From Escherichia coli (GTDB lineage Bacteria > Pseudomonadota > Gammaproteobacteria > Enterobacterales > Enterobacteriaceae), in the NCBI RefSeq assembly GCF_003334355.1, contig NZ_QOWP01000001.1: a DNA stretch of 64,000 nt. One strand, given 5' to 3'. Positions 6,636 through 10,459 of the stretch are shown here, in pieces. A program made the position numbers and the translations under genes. How positions within the stretch are numbered: position 1 is the stretch's first letter; the number at the start of each line of letters is the position of its first letter. The notes under the pieces were generated by a model, which worked only from the letters and a program-made list of their open reading frames with translations, searched no databases and was not told the origin of the DNA.

Positions 6636-8066
<1,431 letters not shown>

Positions 8067-8249
8067 GCTCTGTCCCAGCGCCGCCTCCTCAGAAAAGAGT
8101 CGGCGCTGAAATTCTCCTTTCTTTCTGGAAAGCGCCTCGCATAATCTGAAGAAAACCAATGTAATACGCTCATCTGGATTGTTACCGGTAGATGCCCGGC
8201 GTATAGCTGATTCCATTATTCAACGCAGCGCCATATAAAGGGACAGATA

Positions 8250-8729
8250 ATGGAATCGCTCTCAGAGAGAACCTCAACAGGCTACCAGCAAATCCATGAC
8301 GGTATTATTCACCTGGTCGATAGCGCCCGGACGGAAACGGTACGTAGCGTTAACGCGCTGATGACCGCGACATACTGGGAAATTGGCCGACGAATTGTCG
8401 AATTTGAACAAGGTGGCGAGGCCAGGGCTGCGTATGGTGCGCAGCTAATCAAGCGACAATCAAAGGATTTAAGTCTAAGGTATAAGCGTGGGTTCTCTGC
8501 AAAAAACTTACGCCAAATGAGGCTTTTTTACCTCTTTTTTCAACATGTTGAAATTCGCCAGACAGTGTCTGGCGAATTAACACCATTGGGAATTCCGCAG
8601 ACACCATCTGCAGAATTCCCATCGGCAAAGATTTGGCAGACGCTGTCTGCCAAATTGAGAGGCTGTTTGATATTTCCACAGCTTTTGTATTGCATCTCCT
8701 ATTTTCGGTTTGTATATTCATGCAAATAA
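8250..8729 (+). pseudogene. yhcG: Truncated YhcG-like (DUF1016 family) gene; N-terminal domain only
   Basis: The first ~100 aa (…YWEIGRRIVEFEQGG…NLRQMRLFYLFF…IRQTVSGEL) resemble the DUF1016/YhcG N-terminal region as I recall it. After that the reading frame runs through a palindrome array and AT-rich sequence with no nuclease-like C-terminal domain. The intact 159-aa ORF could still be translated. Confidence 0.55.
8552..8653. repeat. Three imperfect palindromes with a CAGAC..GTCTG core, centres about 39 bp apart
   Basis: aattcgccagacagtgtctggcgaatt (8552-8578), gggaattccgcagacaccatctgcagaattccc (8588-8620) and ttggcagacgctgtctgccaa (8633-8653), read directly from the sequence. Confidence 0.7.
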
Positions 8730-8745
8730 ACGAAGGAAAGTTGCC

Positions 8746-9051
8746 ATGATTTACATTGAACAGCTTGAATTAATCCATAAAAGTGGTGATGTGTTGTATC
8801 CAGTAAAAATAACCAGAAAATCATCAGGAAAAACTGCCTTCCACCTTGTTCCATTCGGCTTAAATAAGACTCACGACCTTCTAGAGGTGGAAGATGCTTC
8901 AGAAGCAATTCGGCTGGTGATTGATGAACGTCATTCCATTCGCTGCAGTACACTTACAGCAACTATTACGAATAAAAAGGGCAAGCGAATTAAGCGGACA
9001 GGTATATACAGTATCAAGGGTGTTAACATAAAAGAATACAACGTCAGGTAA
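8746..9051 (+). CDS. Hypothetical small protein (~101 aa), orphan, AT-rich
   Basis: ATG at 8746 is preceded by a GAAGGAAAG Shine-Dalgarno-like sequence about 7 nt upstream. The ORF (in frame with the list entry 8710..9051) ends with a basic tail (KKGKRIKRTG). I recognise no motif. A hairpin follows at 9053-9092. Confidence 0.4.
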   Translation: MIYIEQLELIHKSGDVLYPVKITRKSSGKTAFHLVPFGLNKTHDLLEVEDASEAIRLVIDERHSIRCSTLTATITNKKGKRIKRTGIYSIKGVNIKEYNVR

Positions 9052-9126
9052 TGGCACAGAGCGGTCCGTCAGTTCAGGTTTGGCTCTGTGCCAAAGATGG
9101 GTCAGGTCACACCTGATCTAATAAAT

Positions 9127-10459
<1,333 letters not shown>

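What the first reader, a model, noticed from the sequence alone, without database searches (positions are those of the whole stretch)
8746..9051. AT-rich orphan ORF (~101 aa) with a proper RBS and no recognisable family
MIYIEQLELIHKSGDVLYPVKITRKSSGKTAFHLVPFGLNKTHDLLEVEDASEAIRLVIDERHSIRCSTLTATITNKKGKRIKRTGIYSIKGVNIKEYNVR. The ATG at 8746 is preceded by GAAGGAAAG about 7 nt upstream. The ORF is followed by a 10-bp-stem hairpin (ggcacagagc...gctctgtgcc, 9053-9092). By eye, not computed, the region is noticeably more A+T-rich than the flanking genes, which suggests horizontal origin. I see no catalytic motif, signal peptide or transmembrane segment. The basic tail (KKGKRIKRTG) could indicate nucleic-acid binding. 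Small orphan genes at variable junctions are sometimes toxins, immunity proteins or phage-defence accessories, but that is speculation here.
Basis: seen in the sequence. Interest (0 to 1): 0.55.

Follow-up and report, generated by a model that had tools for sequence, protein, structure and literature searches.

The report
Phage-derived restriction-linked small gene in yhcG
The 101-codon ORF is a real, conserved, phage-borne gene that replaced the nuclease half of E. coli yhcG; RefSeq's name "transposase" is unsupported, and it belongs to an uncharacterised family of small basic proteins that elsewhere sit inside restriction-modification operons or are fused to DNA-targeting defence enzymes.

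Summary
The ATG is at 8746, the stop at 9049-9051, the RBS GAAGGAAAG at 8732-8740 and the 10-bp-stem hairpin at 9053-9092. GC is 38.6% against 51.5% for the window.

It is not an orphan. It lies in a 470-bp foreign segment (8656-9125) that replaces about 780 bp of yhcG in 719 of 5426 complete E. coli genomes. Homologues at 59-88% identity occur in Enterobacter and Yersinia prophages and islands, and beside gene N of lambdoid phages. dN/dS is 0.14-0.23.

RefSeq's name "transposase" most likely derives from an adjacent IS600 in Shigella. No Pfam, NCBIfam, PHROG or PADLOC model matches.

Best reading: a free-standing DNA-reader or accessory module of restriction systems, carried as a phage moron. 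The biochemical role is inferred, not shown.

The hairpin belongs to a separate module homologous to the "left inverted repeat" of the phage P2 Z/TO hot-spot.

The parts
8250..8655 (+). 5' remnant of yhcG (DUF1016 N-terminal part). Homology to intact yhcG ends at 8655. The open frame runs on to a stop at 8727-8729 inside the foreign DNA.
   Evidence: RefSeq annotates it as a pseudogene 'missing C-terminus'. The first mismatch to intact yhcG (L002) is at 8656.
8656..9125 (.). Foreign AT-rich segment (470 bp, about 40% GC) that replaces about 780 bp of yhcG (its 3' two-thirds plus the yhcG-nanQ spacer).
   Evidence: Present in full in 719 of 5426 complete E. coli genomes at 99% identity or more, always on the chromosome.
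8690..8718 (+). Promoter-like element TTGCAT (8690-8695), 17-nt spacer, TATATT (8713-8718). It falls below the strict scan threshold, but its key bases are invariant in all five contexts aligned.
   Evidence: invariant TTG...TTTGTAnATTCA columns across E. coli, Yersinia, Enterobacter and two phages; no hit at the strict threshold. Function is inferred.
8732..8740 (+). Ribosome-binding site GAAGGAAAG.
   Evidence: An AGGA/GGAG core is kept in the homologous loci.
8746..9051 (+). 101-aa gene (RefSeq WP_000639208.1, labelled 'transposase'). A small, basic, beta-rich domain protein of an uncharacterised restriction-linked family.
9053..9092 (.). 10-bp-stem hairpin (20-nt loop) with no T-run. It is part of the tail repeat module.
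9041..9123 (.). Tail module homologous (76-84% identity) to the 'left inverted repeat' that bounds the Z/TO moron hot-spot after gene G of P2-like phages. It is also found at other prophage junctions, always abutting the stop of a minus-strand gene (here nanQ, stop at 9127).

Best explanation
The ORF is a real, translated-type gene of phage origin, a 'moron' with its own promoter-like leader and RBS. It arrived on a 470-bp AT-rich fragment and replaced the PD-(D/E)XK nuclease half of yhcG in a subset of E. coli. Its product is a single ~95-residue basic domain: six to eight beta-strands packed around one helix, with no significant solved-structure neighbour. The family uses this domain in three ways. 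It appears as a module within predicted HNH endonucleases and McrB-type AAA+ proteins (type IV-like restriction enzymes). In one sequence-level homologue it forms the C-terminal module of a UDG-superfamily DNA glycosylase. It also occurs as a separate small gene, tightly packed between hsdR and hsdM of type I restriction-modification operons. The most likely mechanism (inferred) is that the protein binds DNA, possibly a modified or otherwise marked form, and acts as a target-recognition or accessory subunit that modulates restriction-type defence. In prophages and at the E. coli yhcG locus it would be expressed on its own from its own promoter and act in trans, in inter-phage conflict or restriction control. 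Shown: that it is a gene, that it is foreign, the family, the fold model, the genomic associations, and the fusion partner's fold. Inferred: DNA binding, any modification specificity, and the direction of the effect (defence versus restriction alleviation).
Confidence: 0.5

Rival explanations
1. Restriction-alleviation or anti-restriction factor. The protein binds a restriction-enzyme subunit (for example HsdR or HsdM) rather than DNA, and tunes or blocks restriction. In type I operons it would be a built-in governor; on phages it would be a counter-defence, functionally like lambda Ral, which lies next to N.
For: It is tightly coupled between hsdR and hsdM. In lambdoid phages it sits directly beside N, the neighbourhood where lambda carries ral (for the position; ral's location is from my own knowledge). 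It is carried by phages and islands without any nuclease partner.
Against: In the phages it is on the strand opposite to N and pL, which is typical of lysogen-expressed morons rather than early anti-restriction genes. It has no similarity to the Ral, Lar, ArdA or Ocr families (Pfam none). It is basic (pI 9.7), unlike DNA-mimic anti-restriction proteins. Its occurrence as a module in nucleases and glycosylases fits a targeting domain better than an inhibitor.
Confidence: 0.2
2. A selectively neutral hitch-hiker in E. coli. The gene works in its phage or R-M contexts, but at the yhcG locus it is just a relic of an aborted phage-DNA insertion and has no role in the cell.
For: The E. coli copies are 99% or more identical (722 of 724 full-length matches). 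This suggests a single recent event, and within-species conservation therefore says nothing about selection. There is no partner gene, no consensus promoter, and the host gene it disrupts is a pseudogene.
Against: The ORF is intact in essentially all 719 carriers, with its conserved leader and RBS. Between-species dN/dS of 0.14-0.23 shows the gene is under constraint in standalone form.
Confidence: 0.2
3. It is a transposase or IS-encoded protein, as RefSeq names it.
For: RefSeq/PGAP product name 'transposase'; UniRef name 'IS600 orf-like protein'.
Against: No transposase domain appears in Pfam or NCBIfam for any of 26 family members. At 101 aa, with a beta-rich single-domain fold, it is far too small for a DDE or HUH enzyme. 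There are no terminal inverted repeats or multiple copies, only one locus per genome. The label is explained by Shigella ORF calls in which the last 25 residues of an IS3-family (IS600-type) transposase are read through into this ORF (P0002; NF033516 positions 346-369).
Confidence: 0.02
4. Small toxin, antitoxin or immunity protein of a two-gene conflict module.
Against: No conserved partner gene exists across contexts. There is no PADLOC or Pfam TA match. The conserved neighbours are hsdR and hsdM, not a cognate small gene.
Confidence: 0.05

Closest known systems
Variable accessory or 'reader' domains of type IV restriction enzymes (McrB N-terminal domains; the ScoMcrA 'head' domain, PDB 5ZMM)
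   Same: A ~100-residue module with similar predicted fold (TMq 0.58-0.78) occurs in proteins annotated HNH endonuclease, McrB-like AAA_5 ATPase and ScoMcrA-like head domain. The family is basic, and its partners are DNA enzymes.
Accessory genes embedded in type I R-M operons (the 'R-MS' arrangement with inserted genes, for example DUF1016/YhcG, RhuM, PrrC-type genes)
   Same: Distant family members sit between hsdR and hsdM with overlapping or near-abutting reading frames. [quoted passage not shown]
   Different: I found no description of this particular small family. The E. coli copy is not in an R-M operon.
Phage morons at diversity hot-spots (the P2 Z/fun TO region; the lambdoid N-proximal region)
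   Same: It is AT-rich, with its own promoter-like leader, and in lambdoid phages it is oriented against the flanking phage operon. In E. coli it is followed by a repeat homologous to the P2 Z-region 'left inverted repeat', in the same layout as in P2 (ORF, repeat, stop of a minus-strand gene). P2 variable loci are known to hold anti-phage genes (PMC9122126).
   Different: The gene was not found in any deposited P2-like or other phage genome. In E. coli it lies in the chromosome between gltD and nanQ, not in a prophage.
Lambda Ral / Rac Lar restriction-alleviation proteins
   Same: A small phage protein, next to N in lambdoid phages, and linked to type I R-M by genomic context.
   Different: No sequence or profile similarity, opposite strand to N, and a different predicted fold class. 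Functional similarity is untested.

Membership tests
Transposase (IS3/IS600 family; the RefSeq product name) | DDE/rve catalytic domain matching the transposase profile | tested here: not met
   No Pfam or NCBIfam hit for the 101-aa protein or for any of 26 relatives. Only the read-through Shigella ORF P0002 matches NF033516, and only in its non-homologous N-terminal 25 residues.
Transposase (IS3/IS600 family; the RefSeq product name) | Element structure: terminal inverted repeats and multiple genomic copies | tested here: not met
   There is one full-length locus per genome, always at yhcG. Only the 3' tail repeat recurs elsewhere.
ScoMcrA-like N-terminal head domain | Sequence match to the family profile | tested here: not met
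   Pfam-A scans of the query and of all alignment members gave no hit at E<=0.1. A PDB sequence-profile search found nothing at E<=10.
ScoMcrA-like N-terminal head domain | Same three-dimensional fold | tested here: inconclusive
Type IV restriction enzyme reader module (HNH or McrB fusions) | Domain physically fused to an HNH nuclease or McrB AAA+ GTPase | tested here: inconclusive
   Structure-only matches to about 20 such AFDB proteins, TMq 0.65-0.78. Target coordinates are not given, and no sequence-level hit was retrieved. A fusion to a UDG-fold glycosylase is shown at sequence plus structure level.
Type IV restriction enzyme reader module (HNH or McrB fusions) | Binds modified DNA | not testable with these tools
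   This needs EMSA or a structure with DNA. The only supporting property is a basic pI across the family.
Type I R-M operon-embedded accessory gene | Located between, or translationally coupled to, hsd genes | tested here: not met
   This is met for distant homologues (L022-L024, L029, L030, L036, L037). It is not met for the window's gene, which lies between a yhcG remnant and nanQ.
Phage moron | Autonomous unit (own promoter, deviant GC) inserted between phage genes, often on the opposite strand | tested here: met
   GC is 38.6% against 51.5%. The conserved leader has a promoter-like TTGCAT-17-TATATT. The gene is convergent with N in lambdoid phages and lies in a prophage cargo region in E. 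cloacae. Promoter activity itself was not tested.
P2 Z/TO-region 'left inverted repeat' (tail module 9041-9123) | Sequence homology to the annotated repeat and the same position after the stop of the flanking gene | tested here: met
   76-80% identity over 74-83 bp to AJ512683/AJ512682 (annotated 'left inverted repeat'), to P2 and to other Peduovirus genomes. It abuts the stop of a minus-strand gene in every case examined.
Ral/Lar or ArdA/Ocr anti-restriction proteins | Profile match; an acidic DNA-mimic character for ArdA/Ocr | tested here: not met
   No Pfam match; pI 9.7.

The most novel reading that the evidence does not exclude
The family is a previously undescribed, free-standing DNA-reader subunit of restriction systems. 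Encoded between hsdR and hsdM, it would give type I enzymes an extra layer of target discrimination, for example recognising a phage DNA modification. The same module is reused in type IV-like nucleases and in UDG-type antiviral glycosylases. Phages have captured it as a moron, either to exclude rivals or to blunt host restriction.
Probability: 0.25. Interest if true: 0.7.

Novelty: new variant of a known kind. Interest (0 to 1): 0.5.

Why it matters
There are three reasons it matters.

First, it corrects an annotation that has propagated to hundreds of RefSeq and UniRef entries ("transposase", "IS600 orf-like protein").

Second, it defines a small domain family with no Pfam model. A confident predicted fold has no solved relative. 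The family links three classes of DNA-targeting immunity: type I R-M operons, type IV-like HNH/McrB enzymes and UDG-fold glycosylases. That makes it a cheap, testable candidate for a new DNA, or DNA-modification, recognition module.

Third, it documents a chromosomal locus where one R-M-associated accessory gene (yhcG/DUF1016) was half-replaced by another. The replacement is bounded by a repeat otherwise known from the P2 moron hot-spot. This bears on how phage hot-spot cassettes move into chromosomes.

Tried and rejected
- Curated libraries: Pfam, NCBIfam, PHROGs, PADLOC and PDB sequence searches on the protein and on a 26-member profile found nothing.
- Rfam over 8400-9300: only chance-level hits.
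- tblastn against 50,697 phage genomes: none. Against plasmids: only a mis-filed chromosome and two partial, unannotated Klebsiella copies next to IS110.
- Profile search in the word-indexed 5.8-billion protein set: did not reach the HNH or McrB fusions.
The narrower one found two more loci, both in R-M operons.
- hhalign between the family and the alternative C-terminal domains of the other UDG-like fusions: 29.7% probability, inconclusive.
- Search for a P2 'right inverted repeat' counterpart at the left junction: the best match falls on the junction but is not above shuffles.
- The strict promoter and terminator scan found nothing.
- The remnant-of-yhcG idea is rejected.
- The transposase idea is rejected.
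- My own recollection that the ScoMcrA head domain mediates dimerisation was wrong. The paper says its function is unknown.
- Nilsson et al. 2004, the source of the P2 repeat annotation, is not held.

Full report
**1. Observation**

The window is the E. coli gltB-gltD / nan junction. The ORF is exactly as described. The ATG is at 8746 and the TAA at 9049-9051, giving 101 aa. GAAGGAAAG lies at 8732-8740. A 10-bp-stem hairpin runs from 9053 to 9092. As RNA the hairpin region folds at -36.4 kcal/mol, z = -6.05. The AT-richness is real: ORF GC 38.6% (GC3 36.3%), against 55.9% for gltD, 48.0% for nanQ and 51.5% for the window. No curated library recognises the protein: Pfam, NCBIfam, PHROGs, PADLOC.

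**2. Local anatomy**

Complete E. coli genomes fall into two classes. Most carry an intact 375-aa yhcG (PD-(D/E)XK, DUF1016) between gltD and nanQ. In 719 of 5426 genomes, homology to yhcG stops at window 8655. A 470-bp segment (8656-9125) then runs up to two bases before the nanQ stop codon, replacing about 780 bp. RefSeq annotates the left part as a yhcG pseudogene and the ORF as WP_000639208.1 'transposase'.

The foreign segment is itself composite. A unit of about 400 bp, 8660 to about 9060, holds an 86-bp leader plus the ORF. It is 85% identical to loci in Yersinia canariae and Enterobacter cloacae and 71-79% identical to phage contigs. A separate tail, about 9041-9123, recurs without the ORF at prophage junctions.

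**3. It is a gene, not a remnant**

The DNA after 8655 is unrelated to yhcG. The same 101/102-aa reading frame with the same start occurs in unrelated contexts. Pairwise dN/dS is 0.14-0.23, and differences concentrate at third codon positions. The leader keeps TTGCAT-17 nt-TATATT (8690-8718) and the RBS across all five contexts aligned. This element fails the strict consensus scan, and there is no intrinsic terminator.

**4. The 'transposase' label**

The exact protein is also named 'IS600 orf-like protein'. In Shigella, ORF calls such as P0002 begin with the last ~25 residues of an IS3-family transposase (NF033516 positions 346-369) and read through into this ORF. No family member has a transposase domain. 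I conclude that the name most likely derives from this neighbouring IS.

**5. Where the gene travels**

- Yersinia-type lambdoid phage contigs carry a 59%-identical copy 15 bp from the end of gene N, on the opposite strand. Four IMG/VR contigs have the same layout.
- In E. cloacae it lies in a cargo block inside a lambdoid prophage.
- In Y. canariae it lies beside an integrase at icd.
- It is absent from deposited phage genomes.

**6. The family and its fold**

A full HMMER pass over 1.84 billion representatives found 34 proteins. They range down to about 30% identity and include fusions. The 26-member alignment shows motifs H-x-SGD-x-LYPV, TGK-x-AFR, VR-x-x-TL and R-x-GLY...RSI. The family is basic, with pI above 9 in 20 of 26 members.

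**7. Fusion partner**

**8. Type I R-M operons**

- P0067 sits between hsdR (HSDR_N/ResIII/EcoEI_R_C) and hsdM-hsdS, with gaps of 3 and 9 nt.
- P0061 sits after hsdR and overlaps hsdM by 4 bp.
- P0044 overlaps the hsdR stop on two contigs.
- A genome scan added Aquitalea pelogenes, with the full hsdR-X-hsdM-hsdS layout, and a Burkholderiaceae MAG showing X-hsdM-hsdS before the contig ends.
- P0058 is in a defence island with Mrr, a helicase and EcoRII-C.
- P0041 and P0072 show no such neighbours.

Four of the operon cases belong to one subfamily, so I count about two independent lineages. [quoted passage not shown] I found no description of this family. DUF1016/YhcG, the gene truncated here, is itself reported inside type I loci and enriched near phase-variable R-M genes (PMC9881135).

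**9. The hairpin and tail**

The tail, hairpin included, is 76-80% identical to the sequence just after tail-fibre gene G of P2 and its relatives. In AJ512682 and AJ512683 that sequence is annotated as the 'left inverted repeat' of the Z region, which brackets a foreign 'lysogenic' ORF. The layout in the window is the same as in P2: an AT-rich ORF on the + strand, then the repeat, then the stop of a minus-strand gene. It also holds at other prophage junctions. P2 variable loci are known reservoirs of anti-phage genes (PMC9122126). No significant 'right repeat' counterpart was found at the left junction. The hairpin is therefore part of a hot-spot boundary repeat, not the ORF's own terminator.

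**10. Interpretation**

Three things are firmly shown. The ORF is a real gene. It is of foreign, phage-associated origin. It belongs to an uncharacterised, restriction-linked domain family. The mechanism is inferred: a DNA-binding or reader accessory module acting in trans. The main rivals are a protein-binding restriction modulator (Ral-like) and a neutral relic at this particular locus. The transposase and yhcG-remnant readings are rejected.

**11. Novelty and score**

The gene is already annotated, but the annotation is unsupported. The family, its fold and its R-M operon placement appear undescribed. I rate it a new variant of a known kind (accessory or reader modules of restriction systems, and phage morons), with interest 0.5.

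Noticed in passing
window 8552-8574, 8592-8622, 8633-8653; L002 4292-4320: yhcG contains three palindromes of the form CAGAC-N3/5-GTCTG, each encoding a 'QTxS(A/G)' peptide repeat in the YhcG linker. In strains with intact yhcG a fourth copy lies after the stop codon, and the third and fourth are both followed by AATCTTT. The foreign segment begins 2-3 nt after the third palindrome.
   Followed up: partly
window 9041-9123; L013 2501-2583; L014 2501-2572; L015 2501-2556; L039 2501-2583; L038 3-115: A repeat of about 60-85 bp (core GTCAGATTAGGTTTGGCTCTGTGCCATAGATGTGTCAGCTCACACCTGAGCTAATA) is present in about 620 other E. coli genomes and 65 phage records (P2-like, Stx-converting, Yersinia and Klebsiella phages). 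It always directly abuts the stop of a gene and borders variable cargo. It is annotated only once, as the 'left inverted repeat' of the P2 Z-region.
   Followed up: partly
window 8651-8671: The best local match between the left junction and the reverse complement of the P2-EC58 'right inverted repeat' falls exactly across the junction (CAAAT-TGAGAGGCTG-TTTGA against CAAATCTGACAGTCTGCTTTGA). Its score is within the range of shuffled controls.
   Followed up: yes
window 8066-8250: This strain has yhcG directly after gltD. By my recollection, not checked here, K-12 has gltF and the yhcADEF fimbrial-type genes in this interval. If so, the gltD-nanQ interval is a variable junction beyond the yhcG replacement.
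   Followed up: no
P0079-P0197; P0062 model: A large uncharacterised family of ~243-aa UDG-superfamily-fold proteins has no Pfam match. It has invariant Cys, His and HPSG-N-GHF motifs, and occurs alone or fused to at least three different ~100-aa C-terminal domains. These are candidate antiviral or repair glycosylases with swappable reader domains.
   Followed up: partly
L024 1933-3480; L036 920-2482: In two genomes an RtcR-like sigma-54 activator gene lies immediately upstream of the hsdR-X-hsdM-hsdS operon. This hints at stress-regulated expression of that type I system.
   Followed up: no
P0056: A 1655-aa protein matches residues 47-92 of the query in seven separate stretches (E 1.2e-5) and has only weak adhesin-repeat hits. 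It may be a repeated sub-domain or a compositional artefact.
   Followed up: no
L031 6001-6210 (Klebsiella oxytoca plasmid CP056420; also NZ_CP029143): An unannotated, partial copy of the gene (73% identity, residues 23-93) lies next to an IS110 transposase on non-mobilizable Klebsiella plasmids.
   Followed up: partly
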